Shown here: piece after piece, positions 2,794-36,886 of the stretch
Layout: every line of letters starts with the position of its first letter
Position numbering within the stretch: the stretch's first letter is position 1
IMG/VR virus record: IMGVR_UViG_648861009_000009
Source: a virus
Lineage: Duplodnaviria > Heunggongvirae > Uroviricota > Caudoviricetes
Reading direction: 5' to 3' (one strand)
Length of the DNA: 43,791 bases
Made by a program: the position numbers and the translations under genes
Notes under the pieces: model-generated
Databases searched by the model: none
Told to the model about the DNA's origin: nothing
Seen by the model: the letters and a program-made list of their open reading frames with translations, nothing else

Positions 2794-4930
2794 GAAACTT
2801 CCCCATTGGTTGAAAATATGGCTCCTCCAACTCCAAGTGTATTTCGTGTTGTGCTCAACCTAAGAGGGCTGGAGTCAGAATTAGAATATCCTGTAGCAGA
2901 AATAAAAGATCCTCCACTAATAGTCAACTGCGGAACATCGGCTATATCTGAATAAGTTCTGTCAGCAACAGTATTATTTATAGCCACATGTGATCCAAAA
3001 AAACTTCTTATTGTTTGGTTTTTAACTTTACTTCCTTCAATGGTTATCCTACTACCACAGTCAGCAATAAATCCTGAATCTGCATCCAGCGTTGCATTCA
3101 TAAAAGAAGCTTCAGATCTCTCTACATCAATCCATCTAATATCTTTTGTGGGATTTGCACCAAATACATGACAAATATTAGAGTTAAACCTTACACCATC
3201 TTGGAGGTGCATTAATTTTTTTATATCTGTACCCCATAGCCTTGGAAAATTAACAGATGCTCCTGCATGGCAATCAAATCCCAACTCAGCCCCTGAGATA
3301 TCTACAGCCTTTCCTGAAATAACAGCACCAGTGTCTGCATTAACGGCTGTTCCACAATTGCGCATATCATTACCAGCAATATCAACACAACTCGCACCAT
3401 CAATACGCACACCAAGTGCACATCCATAAAAACCTTTTTCAATATTTGGTTCAAGGACTTTACCACTTGTTTCTGCATCACTTTCTTCAACGTCATGTCG
3501 TCTTGCATCAACATATGCTGTATGAATGCAGGTTAATCCACGATATGAGCAATGTATAGTTTTATGGTCGCGTATATTAACATTTNNNNNNNNNNNNNNN
3601 NNNNNNNNNNNNNNNNNNNNNNNNNNNNNNNNNNNNNNNNNNNNNNNNNNNNNNNNNNNNNNNNNNNNNAACCATCTCTTACATTCCATCCTATATAACA
3701 ATAGCTTGCACTTGACCCCTGAAAATCTGCTTTAACATTATAAATACAATTAACTGACGCAACCGTACTCTCTGTGCACCGTTCAAACTTGCTTACAGGC
3801 ATTGATGCCTTGACATTATTTACCAGTTGCAGGGAAGAGTATCTGCTATAAGAAAAATCACATACGTAATACCCTTCTGGCATATATGCAGCAACACTTT
3901 CCTCATCAGGAGCACATCCGGTATGATATGCACTAATTTTTGCACCAAAGCTACCATGAATTCCAACGTAGAACTTTCGAGCACCTGAATACGGATAGAA
4001 ATTAAGTTCAGCTTTTTGAGTTACAATAAATGCACAAACATCGCTATCATCTCTATTTTCTTCAATCTGAATAGCAAATACAGGACTTTTTGCTGCATCG
4101 CAAATGTAAAATAAATATTTGTATTCGTAATACGTCCTAACAGTTTTAGTAAACAAACTGGTATCAGAGAAAACCACTGAGTCTTCTGATATTATTTTAA
4201 TCCATGATAAGTCACATCCTGCTGAAATTTCTATTTGCTCATTGAGCACAAAACCGGAAAGAATTTTAATTATGCAAAAGTCAATGCCATTTTTCCATAG
4301 TGGACGCAGTGCAACAGCCGAGTTTAGAGCATCACTAATAGATTTAAAATTACCATATTCCCCAACTGTTATTGTGAATGCATACCTGGAATTAAATACT
4401 GCGGCACTCTCTCCAGAGTTAATAGCTGCAGATATCATGTCATAATTTGATATAAAATCATTTGGCGTGATTATTTCTGCGTTTTTATTGTGCTGTGTTC
4501 TAAGTTTTGAATTTACATGAACACTTTTAACTGCAATACGGGAGTCGTCAACAAGTATTTCATTACCCTCTGTTGCTAACTCTTGTCTTAACTGATCCGG
4601 GTCATACTTCAGCACATTCGGAAAATTGAACTGCTGTGCACCATACGCATCATAAACAGCCATAGAATGGCCTTGCTCAGTTACGAATTTGGCAATCTGT
4701 CCGTTATATACAGGGTAACCAGCAGCGTTAATGATGATTGGTTGCGATACAGGAACGTGAGAACCGTCTTCATTCTCCACATAAACCTGAATCTGGTTTT
4801 CAGGATTTACAGGGTCAGTGTCAATTTTTCCGATATAAATTTTGCCATTGGCAACCGCTTTAAAAGAACGTGCCATAGTGAAGAGTTGCGAAGGCATCGA
4901 TACGATCACATTGGCTGTAATGTCTGTCAT
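2790..4930 (-). CDS. Tailspike protein, P22 gp9-type N-terminal head-binding domain plus distinct receptor-binding domain; interrupted by assembly gap
   Basis: N-terminus [43 protein letters not shown] matches P22 tailspike; ORF spans N-run 3586-3669. Confidence 0.85.
3586..3669. other. Assembly gap (84 N) inside tailspike gene
   Basis: Run of N. Confidence 0.95.
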
Positions 4931-6676: not shown

Positions 6677-6761
6677 ACCTTGCAACTATAGCATCACGAT
6701 TGATAGATCTTGAACACGATGTTGAGACGCTAAAGACCATGTATGGTAAGGATAAATAAAT

Positions 6762-7040
6762 ATGACAGATACCAAAGTGAACTTCAGAGAAACCATCTTC
6801 AAGGACTCAAGTGATGCTGTAAATGAGTATGCTGATGGATTTGCTTACTCGTCTTTTGGGGATGTCGGAGCAAGATTTGGTTCAATAGCATTTTTTAAGC
6901 ATGTTTCAGACTGGGTTAATAATGAGGAGATTCAGCCAGTTAGATACCAAATTGCCAACATTCGCATGAGTGAAAATCAACTTCTTGAACTGGCTAAGTA
7001 TATAGTTTCTCAACACGAAGAATCAAAAAAATTAAGCTGA
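6762..7040 (+). CDS. Hypothetical soluble protein, first gene of sieA-position cassette
   Basis: 92-aa ORF, RBS AAGGA, no TM. Confidence 0.5.
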   Translation: MTDTKVNFRETIFKDSSDAVNEYADGFAYSSFGDVGARFGSIAFFKHVSDWVNNEEIQPVRYQIANIRMSENQLLELAKYIVSQHEESKKLS

Positions 7041-7047
7041 CAGAGCC

Positions 7048-7608
7048 ATGATTACTTTTCCTGCCGTAAATGCTGATCATGCAGCGGAGAAAAAGAGAAC
7101 TCTTGGTCGTATGGGGTCGACAGGTGGCATAGGAGAAAAGTCCAATGCTTCGCCTCCAGTTACCAAGAATGATATAACCAAAAACAATAATATCGCTTAT
7201 CTTGGAAAACAATACACTGAGGAGCATGCTATGGGCAGCCCATCAAGAGAAGAGATTGACGCGAAGCTTGGTCAAAACAAAGCAGAAATTGAGTTAATAT
7301 CTGCTAACATGCGCGCTGAAATTTCAGCTTTCAGAGAATTCCAATCTAAGCAATTTACAGCTATGAATCAGTCCCTTAATGAAATTAAGGGACAGATATT
7401 CGCTAGCAATGGCGAAGTTGCAGGGCTCAAAGGTCAAATTGATGGCATTAAAACATCCATGACCGCGACCCAATGGCTCGTTGGTGCGGTTCTCGCTATG
7501 CTTGCGGTAATCATAACGCTTCCGCAGATTCAATCTTACTTCAAGGTTTCTGAGCCGACTGCGAAGGAAGCCGCTAGTGAAACCCATGATACCAAAATAA
7601 AGCAGTGA
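7048..7608 (+). CDS. Coiled-coil protein with C-terminal TM anchor (start may be 7231)
   Basis: 186-aa ORF; strong RBS GAGGAG before internal ATG at 7231; C-terminal WLVGAVLAMLAVIITLP. Confidence 0.5.
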   Translation: MITFPAVNADHAAEKKRTLGRMGSTGGIGEKSNASPPVTKNDITKNNNIAYLGKQYTEEHAMGSPSREEIDAKLGQNKAEIELISANMRAEISAFREFQSKQFTAMNQSLNEIKGQIFASNGEVAGLKGQIDGIKTSMTATQWLVGAVLAMLAVIITLPQIQSYFKVSEPTAKEAASETHDTKIKQ

Positions 7609-7636: not shown

Positions 7637-7864
7637 ATGAAGCAATGGCTCATCATAATTGCTGTTTTTTTGCTCATTTACACTGTTTTCCCAACATTAA
7701 AAGCACCAATGCAAATAATTTCACTGGCAATAATTGCGATTGGTGCTTTCATTGCTGTAGCCGTACTTGTGTTTAAGGTTTTAAAGTTTTTAGTTTGGCT
7801 ATCAAAAGATGATGGATGCAAAGTTCATCAAGAAAAAGAAGGCAAAATAACCAAAGTTGACTAA
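7637..7864 (+). CDS. Small 2-TM membrane protein
   Basis: 75-aa ORF, RBS GGGAGG, two hydrophobic helices, charged C-terminus. Confidence 0.5.
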   Translation: MKQWLIIIAVFLLIYTVFPTLKAPMQIISLAIIAIGAFIAVAVLVFKVLKFLVWLSKDDGCKVHQEKEGKITKVD

Positions 7865-32451: not shown

Positions 32452-32646
32452 CTATTTGTTTTTCTTGTTGCTTGGGAAAGGACGAACTTCCTCTCCAATC
32501 ACACTGCCATCAGGCTTTACCGTAACCATGATGTTACGGCCTGCCAGAATGGCCTTGCTGATAGCGCACTGGATTACACCAAAGTCACTGGCTGCTTTAG
32601 CCTGTCCATGGATTTTGGCGTAATCGGCAAGTGTCATTCGAATCAT
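32452..32646 (-). CDS. cro: Cro repressor
   Basis: [33 protein letters not shown]...FPSNKK resembles lambda Cro; ATG 32646 with RBS GGAG. Confidence 0.85.
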
Positions 32647-32675
32647 ATGCACTCTCCGTTATTAACCATGAACAA

Positions 32676-32739
32676 AGAATACTACAGGTATTCAAAGCAA
32701 TCAATACTCAGGGTATTTTTAGTTTAAGTACCTTAGCTA
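32676..32739. promoter_or_regulatory. OR region: three operators overlapping pR and pRM
   Basis: Half-site palindromes ATACTacaGGTAT (32679-32691), ATACTcagGGTAT (32704-32716), GTACCttaGCTAT (32727-32739); pR -35 TTGATT / -10 TATTCT on minus strand. Confidence 0.5.
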
Positions 32740-32752
32740 TTAGAATTAAGCT

Positions 32753-33469
32753 ATGGAAAATAAAAAATCACTGACGACAGAACAGCTGGAAGACGCTAAG
32801 CGGCTTAAGGCTTTGTATGAGTCAAAAAAGAAAGAATTGGGAATAACCCAATACTCAATCGCTGATGAACTGGGTATCACCCAAGGAGCGGTAGGGCATT
32901 ATCTTAATGGCAGAAATGCGCTAAACGTTGAGGTTGCATCTGGTTTTGCACGATTGTTGCAAGTCTCAATTGCTGATTTTAGCCAGTCAATTGCTGCCAA
33001 GGTTGCAGAACAGGCAGAAAGCCTTAAGAGCGATGCCAACGTAAGGTATGCAGGGGAATACAGAGCAGGAAAGAGGTATCCGGTGTTAAGCAGTATCCAG
33101 GCTGGCTCGTGGTGTGAAGCATGCGAACCATACACCATTAAAGACATAGATGTTTGGCTTGAGTCTGACGCGCATATTCAAGGTAATGCGTTCTGGCTTA
33201 AAGTGGAAGGTGATTCAATGACGGCACCGGTTGGGTTAAGCATTCCAGAGGGAACATTCGTTCTTTTCGATACCGGAAGGGAGGCGATCAACGGCAGCTT
33301 GGTCATAGCAAAACTTTCTGACTCTAACGAAGCAACATTCAAGAAGCTGATAATCGACGGCGGAAATAAATACCTCAAGGGACTTAATCCTGCATGGCCT
33401 CTCGTGCCAATCAATGGAAACTGCAAGATTATAGGCGTTGCAATTGAGACAAAACTCAGACTGGTTTGA
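32753..33469 (+). CDS. cI: CI repressor (HTH + LexA-like peptidase domain)
   Basis: 238 aa; LTTEQLEDAKRLKALYESKKKELGITQ and FWLKVEGDSMTAP...TFKKLI resemble lambda CI. Confidence 0.9.
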   Translation: MENKKSLTTEQLEDAKRLKALYESKKKELGITQYSIADELGITQGAVGHYLNGRNALNVEVASGFARLLQVSIADFSQSIAAKVAEQAESLKSDANVRYAGEYRAGKRYPVLSSIQAGSWCEACEPYTIKDIDVWLESDAHIQGNAFWLKVEGDSMTAPVGLSIPEGTFVLFDTGREAINGSLVIAKLSDSNEATFKKLIIDGGNKYLKGLNPAWPLVPINGNCKIIGVAIETKLRLV

Positions 33470-33487
33470 TCACGCAAGGGGGCGCTT

Positions 33488-33856
33488 ATGGTTGGAACCG
33501 CTATAGCAAGCTTTTTGGGGATGTTGGCAATCTCAACAATTTACGGCTTAGCGCATGCTTTTATTGCGAAATCTCTATCAGAAAAAATAAGCCAGGCTTG
33601 GGCGCATAGATCAGCTCGTTTCATGATTCTAGTGATCATAGCAATACAAGGGATATCTGCATTTATCCTCTATGGATCAAGCTTATACCTATTGTATCAA
33701 GGCGCGACATTTACGCCTTACACCAGTGATTACGGAACCCTATACGATGGTAGTGAAGACATCTCTATGGCTTGGATCGTCTTTGGTTTATCTATGGCCG
33801 TGTCTGTTGTAGCAGACATCATTAAGGTAATTCTCGTCTTAACCTTCGCTGACTAA
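33488..33856 (+). CDS. Membrane protein at rex position (3-4 TM), function unknown
   Basis: 122-aa ORF, RBS AAGGGGG, 19 bp after cI stop on same strand, upstream of pL. Confidence 0.55.
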   Translation: MVGTAIASFLGMLAISTIYGLAHAFIAKSLSEKISQAWAHRSARFMILVIIAIQGISAFILYGSSLYLLYQGATFTPYTSDYGTLYDGSEDISMAWIVFGLSMAVSVVADIIKVILVLTFAD

Positions 33857-33989
33857 CCCATAATCCCGGCAGCAATAGCTATCGGGATCCACTTCACATA
33901 TCCCGCATAAAAAGCACTGAACAAGCAGACACCGAAAAAAATAAATATCCTTTGTATTCATTTATTTATCATTATTTCATCAAAAATAA

Positions 33990-34030
33990 ATACCTTGGGT
34001 ATTTACACAATAAAATACCTACAGTATTCT
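33990..34030 (+). promoter_or_regulatory. OL operators and pL promoter
   Basis: ATACCttgGGTAT (33990-34002), ATACCtacAGTAT (34015-34027); -35 TTTACA (34002-34007), -10 TATTCT (34025-34030), 17-bp spacer. Confidence 0.5.
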
Positions 34031-34224: not shown

Positions 34225-34530
34225 ATGACAGTAGTCATTACATATCTGGCTGACGATAACGCCAGAAATCGCCGCAGAGCACGCAGACAGGCTCAACGTG
34301 AGCAGGCAATGCAAGAACAGCGACTGGCGCGAAAAATTGCGCTAAAGCTCTCTGGTTGCGTCAGAGCAGACAAAGCAGCATCACTCGGAAGCCTTCTCTG
34401 CAAGAAGGCAGATGAAGTCGAGCGTAAACAGAACCGTATTTACTACCGCAAGCCACGCTGTGAAATGGGTGTGACTTGCTCAGGCCGCCAGAAGCAACGC
34501 GGAAAATCAATTCCAGCTTATTACGATTGA
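34225..34530 (+). CDS. N: N antiterminator (arginine-rich motif)
   Basis: 101 aa; N-terminal NARNRRRARRQAQ; C-terminal GVTCSGRQKQRGKSIP resembles lambda N. Confidence 0.85.
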   Translation: MTVVITYLADDNARNRRRARRQAQREQAMQEQRLARKIALKLSGCVRADKAASLGSLLCKKADEVERKQNRIYYRKPRCEMGVTCSGRQKQRGKSIPAYYD

Positions 34531-34538
34531 GGTGAGCC

Positions 34539-34676
34539 ATGCTCAAGAAAGTCAAACGCCGACTTTACAAAGAAGGTAGATATTCATGCCAGTTGCCAAA
34601 ATGCGACACGACAAAATGGAGTGTCGATGATTGGTGTAACTGGATAGATAGATACGGAACTTGGTGGGATAAATAA
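34539..34676 (+). CDS. Small Cys/Trp-rich hypothetical protein
   Basis: 45-aa ORF with RBS GAGGTGA; below ORF-track cutoff. Confidence 0.3.
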   Translation: MLKKVKRRLYKEGRYSCQLPKCDTTKWSVDDWCNWIDRYGTWWDK

Positions 34677-34800
34677 CAGGTAACTTAAGCGGATTTATTT
34701 TCGCAGCAAACCACTTATTTGAGGTGAGATATGGAAGAAGAATTTGAAGAGTTCGAAGAGCATCCCCAGGATGTGATGGAACAATACCAGGACTATCCTT

Positions 34801-35001
34801 ATGACTACGACTATTGATAAAAATCAATGGTGTGGACAATTCAAGCGATGCAATGGATGCAAGCTGCAATCGGAATGCATGGTTAAGCCTGAAGAAATGT
34901 TTCCTGTAATGGAAGATGGGAAATATGTCGATAAATGGGCAATACGAACGACGGCAATGATTGCCAGAGAACTTGGTAAACAGAATAACAAGGCTGCCTG
35001 A
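34801..35001 (+). CDS. ral: Restriction-alleviation protein Ral-like
   Basis: 66 aa MTTTIDKNQWCGQFKRCNGCKLQSECMVKPEEMF...; position after N; identification from memory. Confidence 0.5.
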   Translation: MTTTIDKNQWCGQFKRCNGCKLQSECMVKPEEMFPVMEDGKYVDKWAIRTTAMIARELGKQNNKAA

Positions 35002-35016
35002 TGGTGGCCTTTATTT

Positions 35017-35331
35017 TTGGCACTAACAACAGAGGCTAACATGGAATTTAAAGGTACTGAAGGTAAGTGGGAAATAATAATGGATGGCGATGAGATTAAA
35101 ATCATCCAGGCAGACTCACTTGAAAATGGCGCAGGCTGGCGTTCGTATATTGCAATCTGTGAGGAAGTTCAATGTATTGAAGATGCCAATCTAATAGCGG
35201 CAGCACCTGACCTTTTAAATGCCCTGAAAGCGATGCTAAACAAGGCATACAAGCAAAACTGGAATGACCATTATCCTGATGAAGTATCGAAAGCACAGTC
35301 AGCAATTAGCAAAGCTCTTGGGGAAGAATGA
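35017..35331 (+). CDS. Hypothetical protein
   Basis: 104-aa ORF (may start at MEFKG, 35041). Confidence 0.45.
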   Translation: MALTTEANMEFKGTEGKWEIIMDGDEIKIIQADSLENGAGWRSYIAICEEVQCIEDANLIAAAPDLLNALKAMLNKAYKQNWNDHYPDEVSKAQSAISKALGEE

Positions 35332-35491
35332 TGAATAAGAAATACATTGTTGAAGTTATAGAGCGAGAAACGAAAGAAGTAATTAAACATTTCGAATTTG
35401 ATAATTATAGAAAAGCTGACCGCGTCGAAGAAGGATTGTTGCGACAAAGTAATCTCGAAAAATTTGATGTTGTCATGCGATGCGAATAAGC
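35330..35491 (+). CDS. Small hypothetical protein
   Basis: 53-aa ORF overlapping upstream stop; below ORF-track cutoff. Confidence 0.3.
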
Positions 35492-35582
35492 GCCTATAGC
35501 AGATTTACGAGTCTGCTATGTGAGCAATGTCGCTCGTAACTAAACAGGAGCCGACTTGTTCTGATTATTGGAAATCTTCTTT

Positions 35583-35608
35583 GCCCTCCAGTGTGAGGGC
35601 GATTTTTT
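35583..35608 (+). terminator. Rho-independent terminator
   Basis: GCCCTC-CAGTGT-GAGGGC followed by GATTTTTTA. Confidence 0.65.
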
Positions 35609-35628
35609 ATCTATGAGGATATGAATAG

Positions 35629-35997
35629 ATGTCAAACATCAAAAAATACATCATTGATTACGACTGGAAAGCATCAATAGAAATTGAAATCGACCATGAC
35701 GTAATGACAGAGGAAAAACTTCACCAGATTAATAATTTCTGGTCAGACTCTAAATACCGACTCAATAAACACGGCGCTGTATTAAATGCTGTATTAATCA
35801 TGCTGGCGCAACATGCTCTGCTTATAGCAATTTCGAAAGACTTAAATGCATATGGTGTTGTTTGTGAGTTCGACTGGGATGATGGAAATGGTCAGGAAGG
35901 ATGGCCTCCAATGGATGGTAGCGAAGGAATAAGAATTACCGATATCGACACATCAGGAATATTTGATTCAGATGATATGACTATCAAAGCCGCCTGA
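35629..35997 (+). CDS. Hypothetical acidic protein (terminator-bracketed moron)
   Basis: 122-aa ORF with RBS GAGGA just after terminator. Confidence 0.5.
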   Translation: MSNIKKYIIDYDWKASIEIEIDHDVMTEEKLHQINNFWSDSKYRLNKHGAVLNAVLIMLAQHALLIAISKDLNAYGVVCEFDWDDGNGQEGWPPMDGSEGIRITDIDTSGIFDSDDMTIKAA

Positions 35998-36031
35998 GAG
36001 CGTTTTTAAAGAATACAACGAAGGAGGATAT

Positions 36032-36886
36032 ATGAGTGAAGTAACAGATTTAGTTGTTATTGAAAAAGCAAATGCAATGACTGTATTTCAGTCTGCCGAC
36101 CAGATTGAAGAAATCCTTCAAAAGGTTGAACGTGAAGTTATGTCCTTTGTGCCTGATATCACAACGGCAAAGGGCAGAAAGGAGATCGCTTCTCTGGCGT
36201 ATAAAGTTGCGCAGACGAAAACATATCTCGATGGTCTTGGCAAAGACCTTGTTGCTGAACTGAAGGAAATTCCAAAGCTAATTGATGCCAACCGCAAGAC
36301 AGTGCGCGATCGCCTTGATGAACTGAAAGCCAAGGCGCGCCAGCCTCTTACTGATTATGAGGAAGAACAGGCGCGGATTAAAGCCGAAGAAGAAGCTAAG
36401 GCAGCAGCTGAAGCTCTCGCAAAGCAAATTGAGTCTGACCATGAAATAGCGATTTTGATGGATCGCGAATTTGACCGCCAAAGAGAAGAGGCAAGACTCA
36501 AAGCGGAGCAGGAAAAGCGAGAGCATGAAGAACGATTAAAAAGAGAAGCTGAAGAGAAAGCCAGAGCAGAAGCCGAAGCAAAGGCAAAAGCCGAAATTGA
36601 AGCAGCAGCAAGGCGAGAAGCAGAAGCTAAGGCCGCAGCGGAACGTGCAGAGCGTGAACGCATTGAAGCCGAGCAACGAGCACAGCGCGAAGCAAAAGAG
36701 GCAGCAGAACGAGCTGAAAGAGAAAAGCAGGCAGCAATTGAAGCAGAACGCAGAAAAGCACAGGAGGAGGCTGAACGAATCCGTCGCGAGGCTGAAGCAA
36801 AAGAGCAAGCCAGAATAGCAGAAGAAAAAGAATCAAGGACGAAGAAGAGCGCAGAGCAAAGGATAAAGCTCACCGGAAAGAAGTAA
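36032..36886 (+). CDS. Coiled-coil protein with long E/A/K/R-rich low-complexity region; possible frameshifted C-terminus to 36999
   Basis: 284-aa ORF, RBS AAGGAGGA; stop-free downstream frame encodes ...NNKILADLIKVGASEDVAKNIITAIVKGEVFATKITY. Confidence 0.55.
   Translation: MSEVTDLVVIEKANAMTVFQSADQIEEILQKVEREVMSFVPDITTAKGRKEIASLAYKVAQTKTYLDGLGKDLVAELKEIPKLIDANRKTVRDRLDELKAKARQPLTDYEEEQARIKAEEEAKAAAEALAKQIESDHEIAILMDREFDRQREEARLKAEQEKREHEERLKREAEEKARAEAEAKAKAEIEAAARREAEAKAAAERAERERIEAEQRAQREAKEAAERAEREKQAAIEAERRKAQEEAERIRREAEAKEQARIAEEKESRTKKSAEQRIKLTGKK

What the first reader, a model, noticed from the sequence alone, without database searches (positions are those of the whole stretch)
33488..33856. 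Uncharacterised multi-TM protein in the rexAB position directly after cI
A 122-aa protein with 3-4 predicted TM helices starts 19 bp after the cI stop on the same strand with a strong RBS, upstream of OL/pL. This is where lambda carries rexA-rexB, so it should be made from pRM in the lysogen. It does not resemble RexB as I remember it and there is no RexA-like partner. A single membrane protein here is a plausible stand-alone exclusion or abortive-infection effector.
Basis: partly seen in the sequence, partly recalled or inferred. Interest (0 to 1): 0.6.

Follow-up and report, generated by a model that had tools for sequence, protein, structure and literature searches.

The report
HkaS: orphan membrane protein behind cI
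The ORF is real: it is hkaS of phage HK620, a conserved three-helix inner-membrane protein co-transcribed with the prophage repressor at a known anti-phage hotspot, with no detectable relatives and no tested function, so it is a reasonable but unproven exclusion candidate.

Summary
ORF 33488-33856 (+), 122 aa, starts 18 nt after the cI stop behind an AAGGGGG ribosome-binding site. It ends 86 nt before OL3/OL2/OL1-pL-nutL-N.

It is not new as a sequence. It is hkaS ("unknown") of coliphage HK620, equal to phrog_6534, and every source calls it hypothetical.

It is a real protein:
- dN/dS is 0.15-0.2.
- All 81 fetched loci carry an intact 122-codon ORF.
- The AlphaFold model has pLDDT 91.6 and shows three long helices plus a periplasmic beta-hairpin (three TM helices, not four; predicted N-out/C-in).

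The family is tiny, limited to Escherichia, Salmonella, Hafnia-like and Buttiauxella prophages. It always sits directly after one cI lineage and has co-diverged with it.

No similarity was found to RexB, P22 SieA, Pfam, NCBIfam, PADLOC, PDB sequences or any solved or viral fold. No RexA-like partner is present. Sister immunity modules carry other cargo, or none, at this site.

Function is inferred only. My best guess is a lysogen-expressed inner-membrane superinfection-exclusion factor (about 0.35). The rivals are a Rex-like abortive-infection effector, and a lysogeny or host-physiology modulator.

Interest is moderate: the candidate is easy to test but unsurprising.

The parts
32452..32652 (-). 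cro of the HK620-type immunity module
   Evidence: The ORF is listed. It corresponds to the annotated cro of HK620, and the related loci carry Pfam Cro. It is 79-82% identical in the Salmonella and Hafnia-like modules that also carry hkaS.
32677..32742 (.). OR1-OR3 operator-like sites (32677-32693, 32702-32718, 32726-32742)
   Evidence: Found by a consensus scan with AAATACCNNNGGTATTT, scoring 11-12 of 14. They correspond to the OR1-3 annotation of HK620.
32753..33469 (+). cI repressor (HTH_3 + Peptidase_S24), first gene of the operon
   Evidence: Pfam hits with E = 5e-24 and 8e-10 and phrog_4. It is 98% identical at the DNA level to the HK620 immunity region.
33476..33482 (+). Shine-Dalgarno sequence AAGGGGG of hkaS
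   Evidence: Read directly from the sequence. SD-like sequences at the same spacing occur in HK620, Salmonella, Hafnia-like and Buttiauxella loci.
33488..33856 (+). hkaS: 122-aa three-helix inner-membrane protein (the finding)
33581..33586 (+). A6 tract in codons 32-34 (cytoplasmic loop), where frameshifted and deleted alleles map
   Evidence: HF4s has A5 here. The fragments and variants P0013, P0005, P0008, P0009, P0004 and P0007 all map to this loop.
33863..33888 (+). Stem-loop just after the hkaS stop, with no U-run
   Evidence: It is the main element of the RNA fold. It is kept in the Hafnia-like locus. A different hairpin sits at the same place in Salmonella. A canonical terminator sits there in Buttiauxella.
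33943..34029 (.). OL3 (33943-33959), OL2 (33988-34004) and OL1 (34013-34029) operator-like sites
   Evidence: Found. They are conserved across divergent loci. The HK620 annotation gives OL1 and OL2 at the same places and OL3 about 20 nt further right.
34002..34030 (+). pL-like promoter (TTTACA-17-TATTCT)
   Evidence: Found by the promoter scan. It coincides with the annotated pL of HK620.
34225..34530 (+). N antiterminator homologue, first gene of the pL operon
   Evidence: phrog_271 with E = 8e-35. This region is shared with heteroimmune phages, which marks the right-hand end of the immunity module at about 34030.

Best explanation
hkaS is the second and last gene of the cI operon of an HK620-type immunity module inside a complete P22-like prophage. 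It is transcribed from pRM in the lysogen, and from pRE during establishment. It is translated from its own strong ribosome-binding site. The product inserts into the cytoplasmic membrane as a three-helix bundle.

The predicted layout is:
- the N-terminus in the periplasm;
- a basic cytoplasmic loop (28-44);
- an acidic, tyrosine-rich periplasmic beta-hairpin (75-88);
- a C-terminus at the cytoplasmic face.

My most likely function is a lysogen-expressed superinfection-exclusion factor. It would act at the inner membrane against heteroimmune phages, by interfering with the membrane step of genome delivery.

What is shown: the gene, its operon anatomy, purifying selection, the confident helical-bundle model, the narrow distribution and the strict linkage to one cI lineage. 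The membrane topology (N-out/C-in, with the hairpin periplasmic) is predicted from hydropathy and charge bias.

What is inferred: expression from pRM, inner-membrane location, and above all the anti-phage role and the step it acts on.
For: Anatomy:
- The cI-hkaS gap is 17-20 nt in 80 of 80 loci with upstream sequence.
- The SD sequence is conserved.
- No promoter- or terminator-like site lies between the two genes.
- A terminator or hairpin follows hkaS.

Real protein:
- dN/dS is 0.15-0.2, with dS equal to that of cI.
- 81 of 81 ORFs are intact.
- pLDDT is 91.6.

Membrane topology:
- There are three hydrophobic stretches.
- K28, K33, R41 and R44 lie in loop 1.
- D81, D87, E90 and D91, with no K or R, lie in loop 2.
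- Invariant residues lie on both faces, including the hairpin Y82, G83, Y86 and G88, and D110, K113 and the C-terminal VLTFAD.

Accessory character:
- HF4s, a phage reported to lysogenise, carries a frameshifted copy.
- P22-type immunity modules have no gene here.
- Sister modules carry different cargo.
- dN is about four times that of cI.

Position: the cI-N interval is a recognised hotspot carrying rexAB and bstA (PMC8585504).

[quoted passage not shown] A protein that is almost all membrane helices has little room for a cytoplasmic sensor. That favours action on something in the membrane or periplasm (inference).
Against: - There is no experimental datum of any kind for HkaS.
- There is no homology to any known exclusion or defence protein.
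- Fold searches return only generic helical bundles.
- The gene travels with the immunity region, not with a virion type. It occurs in podoviruses, lambda-like siphoviruses and Stx phages. A target tied to one ejection apparatus is therefore not implied.
- Known defence cargo such as bstA and rexAB is spread across many repressor types and genera. HkaS has stayed with a single cI lineage while synonymous sites saturated. That would fit a role tied to the immunity module itself equally well.
Confidence: 0.35

Rival explanations
1. HkaS is an abortive-infection membrane effector that works like Rex but without RexA. It sits harmlessly in the lysogen's membrane. On infection by another phage it opens or oligomerises, collapses membrane potential and aborts the infection.
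For: It occupies the same operon slot as rexAB. It is a small polytopic membrane protein with invariant polar and charged residues inside the helices: Q54, D110 and K113. Its three-TM, predicted N-out/C-in layout resembles class I holins (own knowledge).
Against: No sensor partner is present, and only about 17 cytoplasmic loop residues are available for sensing. There is no homology to RexB, to holins or to any PADLOC effector. It lacks the charged C-terminal tail typical of holins.
Confidence: 0.15
2. HkaS is a membrane protein that serves the prophage or host without excluding phages. One version modulates the lysis-lysogeny switch or induction, as has been reported for lambda RexA/RexB (own knowledge). 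Another changes host envelope physiology as a fitness 'moron'.
For: In complete E. coli genomes cI and hkaS each give 146 genomes and 147 places. In IMG/VR loci whose cI is at least 87% identical, all 64 with downstream DNA have hkaS. hkaS is retained with this cI lineage in E. coli, Salmonella, Hafnia-like and Buttiauxella prophages, and its dS against the Salmonella and Hafnia-like copies equals that of cI. As a control, lambda-like cI is full length in 618 genomes but rexAB is present in only 99. The cytoplasmic face is conserved (K33, Q36, W38, H40, R44, F45 and the invariant C-terminus) and could bind a cytoplasmic partner.
Against: Linkage is also expected simply because the gene is trapped between OL and OR. 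The E. coli clade is nearly clonal (cI at least 99% identical in 138 of 146 records). HF4s lysogenises despite a frameshifted copy. No domain links the protein to regulation or transport.
Confidence: 0.3
3. hkaS is a hitch-hiking or decaying ORF with no current function, kept only by linkage to cI.
For: Frameshifted or internally deleted alleles exist around the A6 tract. The taxonomic range is very narrow.
Against: dN/dS is 0.15-0.2 across lineages with saturated dS. The length is exactly 122 codons in all divergent members. 45 columns are invariant at 54-60% identity. 81 of 81 ORFs are intact. The structure model is confident.
Confidence: 0.04

Closest known systems
HK620 HkaS / phrog_6534 (identity of the gene)
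   Same: 97% identical protein with a full-length profile match at E = 1e-78. The neighbours are the same: cro, OR, cI, hkaS, tIMM, OL, pL, nutL and N.
   Different: Nothing material differs. The window allele differs from HK620's at 4 residues. The function is listed as 'unknown' in every record.
Lambda RexB (with RexA)
   Same: It lies in the same operon position after cI and before OL. It is a small polytopic inner-membrane protein presumed to be made in the lysogen.
   Different: There is no sequence relation (hhalign probability 0.3%). It has 3 rather than 4 TM helices. There is no RexA partner. RexAB is only loosely linked to lambda-like cI, whereas hkaS is strictly linked to its cI.
P22 SieA
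   Same: SieA is a prophage-expressed inner-membrane protein, predicted to have three TM helices, from the same phage group (P22-like). It blocks DNA delivery through the ejection proteins (PMC10883804).
   Different: There is no sequence relation. SieA is 162-164 aa and is encoded next to ejection gene 16 with its own promoter. hkaS belongs to the immunity module and also occurs in siphoviruses and Stx phages.
BstA of prophage BTP1
   Same: The gene lies directly downstream of cI and presumably shares the repressor's promoter. It is highly expressed in lysogens and is a phage-defence function (PMC8585504).
   Different: [quoted passage not shown] HkaS is a 122-aa membrane protein confined to one cI lineage.
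Class I holins (lambda S105, P22 gp13)
   Same: They have three TM helices, an N-out/C-in topology and about 100-120 aa (own knowledge).
   Different: There is no Pfam holin hit. There is no charged C-terminal tail. The gene is not in the lysis cassette, and it is expressed from the repressor operon rather than late.

Membership tests
HkaS / phrog_6534 | Full-length sequence match to the family profile | tested here: met
   phrog_6534 matches at E = 1.1e-78 over residues 1-122 of 122. The protein is 97% identical to HK620 HkaS.
HkaS / phrog_6534 | Gene located directly after an HK620-type cI and before OL | tested here: met
   See (80 of 80 loci).
Lambda RexB | Sequence or profile homology to RexB | tested here: not met
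   hhalign probability is 0.3%. No Pfam hit appears at E <= 1, and the exhaustive HMM search found no outside relatives.
Lambda RexB | Four transmembrane helices | tested here: not met
   Hydropathy and AlphaFold give three helices. That RexB has four is from my own knowledge.
Lambda RexB | Adjacent RexA sensor partner | tested here: not met
   No other conserved ORF lies between cI and OL.
Lambda RexB | Encoded after cI in the pRM operon | tested here: met
   The position and strand match. Transcription itself was not measured.
Lambda RexB | Excludes T4 rII and depolarises the membrane on infection | not testable with these tools
   This needs plating and membrane-potential assays.
P22 SieA | Sequence homology to one of the SieA types | tested here: not met
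   hhalign probability against P22 SieA is 0.25%. The other two SieA types were not compared.
P22 SieA | Three-TM inner-membrane protein | tested here: inconclusive
   Three TM helices are predicted. Membrane location has not been shown.
P22 SieA | Blocks DNA delivery; escape mutations map to the ejection proteins | not testable with these tools
   This needs infection assays (criteria from PMC10883804).
Class I holin | Pfam holin domain, charged C-terminal tail and a location in the lysis cassette | tested here: not met
   No holin hit was found. The C-terminus ends in the hydrophobic VLTFAD. The gene lies in the immunity region.
Known anti-phage defence systems (PADLOC-DB v2) | Match to any defence-protein model | tested here: not met
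   There are 0 families at E <= 10.
Housekeeping or other curated families (Pfam, NCBIfam, PDB) | Match above the curated threshold | tested here: not met
   The only hit is sub-threshold: Cation_ATPase_C at 19.2 bits against a cut-off of 27.3, seen in 2 of 6 members. NCBIfam gives nothing meaningful. PDB sequences give 0 hits.

The most novel reading that the evidence does not exclude
HkaS is a self-contained membrane device that needs no partner. One version is a single-protein sensor-effector. It would detect the insertion of a foreign ejection conduit or holin through its invariant periplasmic tyrosine hairpin, and answer by collapsing the membrane potential. The other version is a membrane factor functionally coupled to its own cI or Cro that tunes the genetic switch. 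That would explain why it has never separated from this repressor lineage.
Probability: 0.12. Interest if true: 0.7.

Novelty: new member of a known kind. Interest (0 to 1): 0.35.

Why it matters
The slot after the prophage repressor is among the most strongly expressed places in a lysogen. It has already yielded two classic defence systems, RexAB and BstA. HkaS is carried by about 2.7% of complete E. coli genomes (146 of 5,426) and by laboratory phages: HK620, HK630, HK140 and mEpX2. It has had no assigned function since the HK620 genome record (AF335538).

Showing what a 122-aa, partner-less membrane protein does there would add a new family to the short list of inner-membrane exclusion proteins. 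If instead it affects the switch, it would show that repressor operons carry membrane regulators. Either result would help interpret phage-host range data for strains carrying HK620-immunity prophages, including Stx2c phages.

Tried and rejected
1. Homology to RexB and SieA by profile-profile comparison was negative.
2. Pfam, NCBIfam and PADLOC scans gave nothing above threshold. The Cation_ATPase_C hit (19 bits) appears in only 2 of 6 members and was rejected as hydrophobic bias.
3. An exhaustive profile search of 1.84 billion representatives found only the family itself and a fragment. It also returned a 5,949-aa protein whose score is the sum of nine identical ~7-bit matches to a 27-residue stretch. 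That hit was rejected as a repeat artefact.
5. The 40-aa antisense ORF at 33839-33961 was considered as a partner gene and rejected. Its conserved 5' end is the OL3 operator, and the rest diverges with indels.
6. An internal promoter for hkaS, analogous to lambda pLIT, was not found by the consensus scan.
7. Literature searches for hkaS, for HK620-immunity phages and for cI-downstream exclusion genes found no study of this protein. The HK97 gp15 paper could not be read.
8. GC content gave no clear foreign-DNA signature: hkaS 0.42, cI 0.45, prophage 0.46.

Full report
**1. The observation**

The ORF exists as described. It runs from ATG 33488 to the stop at 33854-33856 and encodes 122 aa on the + strand. 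The preceding gene (32753-33469) is a 238-aa cI-type repressor with HTH_3 and Peptidase_S24 domains. Eighteen nucleotides separate the two genes. An AAGGGGG Shine-Dalgarno sequence sits 5 nt before the ATG.

A simple scan finds no promoter- or terminator-like site between the genes. It finds a pL-like promoter at 34002-34030. Operator-like sites flank the module:
- OR sites at 32677-32742.
- OL sites at 33943-33959, 33988-34004 and 34013-34029.

An N homologue follows at 34225-34530 (phrog_271). In lambda the same interval holds rexA and rexB.

Hydropathy gives three hydrophobic blocks. The AlphaFold model gives helices 2-29, 41-74 and 89-121, a short helix at 31-38 and a beta-hairpin at 78-86. 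Its mean pLDDT is 91.6 and pTM is 0.78, from only 6 sequences.

**2. What the window is**

The window is a complete P22-like (Lederbergvirus, HK620-like) prophage in an E. coli chromosome. The integrase lies at 1209-2402. Host transporter genes lie at both ends. The virion genes are 95-97% identical to HK620 and related phages.

The immunity region is 98% identical to that of HK620. There the ORF is annotated as hkaS, product "unknown". The cI-transcript terminator tIMM is placed after it.

The same module occurs in several phage types:
- the lambda-like phage HK630;
- HK140 and mEpX2;
- Stx2c-converting phages;
- vB_EcoP phages.

The gene therefore travels with the immunity module, not with a virion type. 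Similarity to heteroimmune phages (N7, CUS-3, ECP1 and others) starts only at about 34030. OL1 thus marks the right-hand boundary of the module.

**3. It is a real, selected protein**

The protein matches phrog_6534 over its full length, with E = 1e-78. Divergent homologues all have exactly 122 residues and share 45 invariant columns:
- Hafnia-like, 82% identical.
- Salmonella, 60%.
- Other clusters, 54-59%.
- Buttiauxella, 55%.

Nei-Gojobori estimates give dN/dS of 0.15 (window versus Hafnia-like) and about 0.2 (Hafnia-like versus Salmonella). dS equals that of the neighbouring cI (0.66 versus 0.73). dN is about four times higher than for cI (0.099 versus 0.024, and 0.335 versus 0.085). The two genes therefore share one history. 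hkaS is under purifying selection but is less constrained than cI.

All 81 additional loci fetched carry an intact ORF. A few database alleles are damaged, and all the damage maps near an A6 tract in codons 32-34:
- HF4s has A5 there, which shifts the frame.
- Several fragments (P0013, P0005, P0008, P0009) map to the same place.
- Two variants (P0004, P0007) have in-frame deletions in the same loop.

HF4s is reported to lysogenise. If its frameshift is not a sequencing error, hkaS is dispensable for the basic life cycle.

**4. Distribution and linkage**

The family is tiny. The word-indexed search of 5.8 billion proteins found 11 clusters. A full HMMER profile scan of 1.84 billion representatives found one full-length cluster and one fragment. 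It also returned one artefact, made of nine identical 7-bit repeat matches in a 5,949-aa protein. Only one of 185,579 species-representative genomes, a Buttiauxella, carries it.

In complete E. coli genomes, hkaS and this cI each occur in 146 genomes at 147 places, all chromosomal. In 80 of 80 loci with upstream sequence, cI sits 17-20 nt upstream. In a reverse search starting from cI, every locus with cI at least 87% identical and with downstream DNA (64 of 64) has hkaS.

Sister modules behave differently. Their cI C-terminal domain is 86-90% identical but the DNA-binding domain is only 62-73% identical, and they lack hkaS. Nine of them instead carry a 128-aa signal-peptide protein on the opposite strand (phrog_2651). 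L163 has no close ORF there.

P22-type immunity modules have no gene at this position. As a control, full-length lambda-like cI is found in 618 E. coli genomes but rexAB in only 99.

The slot is therefore a variable cargo site, as published (PMC8585504, citing Degnan 2007). hkaS is unusually faithful to one repressor lineage. Part of that fidelity is trivial:
- The gene lies between OL and OR, so recombination that removes it tends to break the immunity module.
- The E. coli clade is nearly clonal.

**5. What it is not**

- Profile-profile comparison with lambda RexB gives 0.3% probability. Comparison with P22 SieA gives 0.25%.
- Pfam gives only a sub-threshold Cation_ATPase_C hit, seen in 2 of 6 members.
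- NCBIfam, PADLOC and PDB sequences give nothing.
- There is no RexA-like gene. The antisense 40-aa ORF that overlaps the stop is not conserved, and its conserved start coincides with OL3.
- All public sources call the protein hypothetical or "HkaS protein".
- No paper in the searchable library treats it.

**6. Anatomy relevant to mechanism**

Charge distribution gives a clear orientation:
- Loop 1 (28-44) carries K28, K33, R41 and R44.
- Loop 2 (71-92) carries D81, D87, E90 and D91 and no basic residue.

The predicted topology is therefore N-out, loop 1 in the cytoplasm, loop 2 in the periplasm, and C-in. Invariant residues cluster in four places:
- One face of TM1, built from small residues: G3, A5, S8, G11, S16 and Y19.
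- The cytoplasmic juxtamembrane segment: K33, Q36, W38, H40, R44 and F45.
- The periplasmic end of TM2 and the hairpin: Y67, L69, Y70, G72, T74, Y82, G83, Y86 and G88.
- TM3 with intramembrane D110 and K113, plus the invariant C-terminus VLTFAD.

Both faces of the membrane therefore carry conserved features. The protein has almost no soluble mass.

**7. Most likely function**

Shown:
- A lysogen-operon gene.
- A selected membrane protein of accessory character, sitting in a variable cargo slot.

Inferred: what it does.
- I rate exclusion at the inner-membrane step of genome entry as most likely, at about 0.35. To my knowledge (own knowledge), the characterised small, partner-less, phage-encoded inner-membrane proteins of this kind (T4 Imm, P22 SieA, HK97 gp15) act at that step. 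[quoted passage not shown] A protein of this size has no room for a cytoplasmic sensor.
- A Rex-like abortive effector is possible but lacks a sensor (about 0.15).
- A non-defence role gets about 0.3, either tuning the switch or induction, or acting on host envelope physiology. The reason is the exceptional fidelity to one cI lineage and the conserved cytoplasmic face.
- A functionless hitch-hiker is unlikely, at about 0.04, given dN/dS.

**8. Novelty and interest**

The sequence is already catalogued as HK620 hkaS and phrog_6534. Its position in the rex slot can be read from the published annotation. What is new here is descriptive:
- The purifying selection.
- The strict co-divergence with cI.
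- The confident three-helix-plus-hairpin model.
- The demonstration that it has no detectable relatives by sequence or fold.
- The alternative cargo in sister modules.

If it proves to be an exclusion protein, it would be a new family of a known kind. A specialist would not be surprised. The phages and hosts exist, so the test is easy. Interest is 0.35.

Noticed in passing
window 7048-7608 (+): A 186-aa ORF with a coiled-coil region and a single C-terminal TM helix (phrog_5820, unknown function). It lies on the opposite strand next to the gene-16 ejection-protein homologue (7861-9984, -). That is the place where P22 carries sieA. It shows no similarity to P22 SieA.
   Followed up: partly
window 33943-33959: The best third operator-like site left of OL2 is AAATATCCTTTGTATTC. 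It is conserved in the Salmonella and Hafnia-like loci. The HK620 record annotates OL3 about 20 nt further right, on a much poorer match. OL2-OL3 spacing would then be 45 bp centre to centre.
   Followed up: partly
L003 about 6720-6925 (E. coli CFSAN064035); also HK140 and Stx2c phages Stx2_EH1904 and Stx2_5044: An insertion of about 206 bp lies between nutL and the N start, relative to the window and HK620. PGAP annotates a 138-aa minus-strand CDS across OL/nutL in that strain, which looks spurious.
   Followed up: no
window 33581-33586 (A6 tract, hkaS codons 32-34): Frameshifted or internally deleted hkaS alleles in databases cluster here. They are HF4s (A5), P0013, P0005, P0008 and P0009, plus the in-frame deletions P0004 and P0007. 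They could be sequencing errors at a homopolymer or real slippage.
   Followed up: partly
L165-L167, L169-L172, L176, L177 (e.g. L166 2251-2634, -): Sister immunity modules have a conserved cI C-terminal domain and a divergent DNA-binding domain. In place of hkaS they carry a 128-aa signal-peptide protein (phrog_2651, unknown function) on the opposite strand directly after cI.
   Followed up: partly
E. coli complete genomes: Full-length lambda-like cI is present in 618 of 5,426 genomes, but rexAB in only 99. Most lambda-cI-like modules therefore lack Rex.
   Followed up: no
L015 about 3390-3420 (Buttiauxella): A canonical intrinsic terminator (CCCGGA...TCCGGG followed by a T-run) directly follows the hkaS homologue. 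The E. coli version has a hairpin without a U-run, plus the weak AT-rich tIMM hairpin.
   Followed up: partly
window 34801-35001 (+) and the pL operon: ral (restriction alleviation) follows N. None of the pL-operon ORFs I scanned (window 34555-36883) matched a superinfection-exclusion PHROG, whereas HK620 carries a putative superinfection-exclusion gene (hkaP) there. The pL-operon cargo therefore differs from HK620 beyond N.
   Followed up: no
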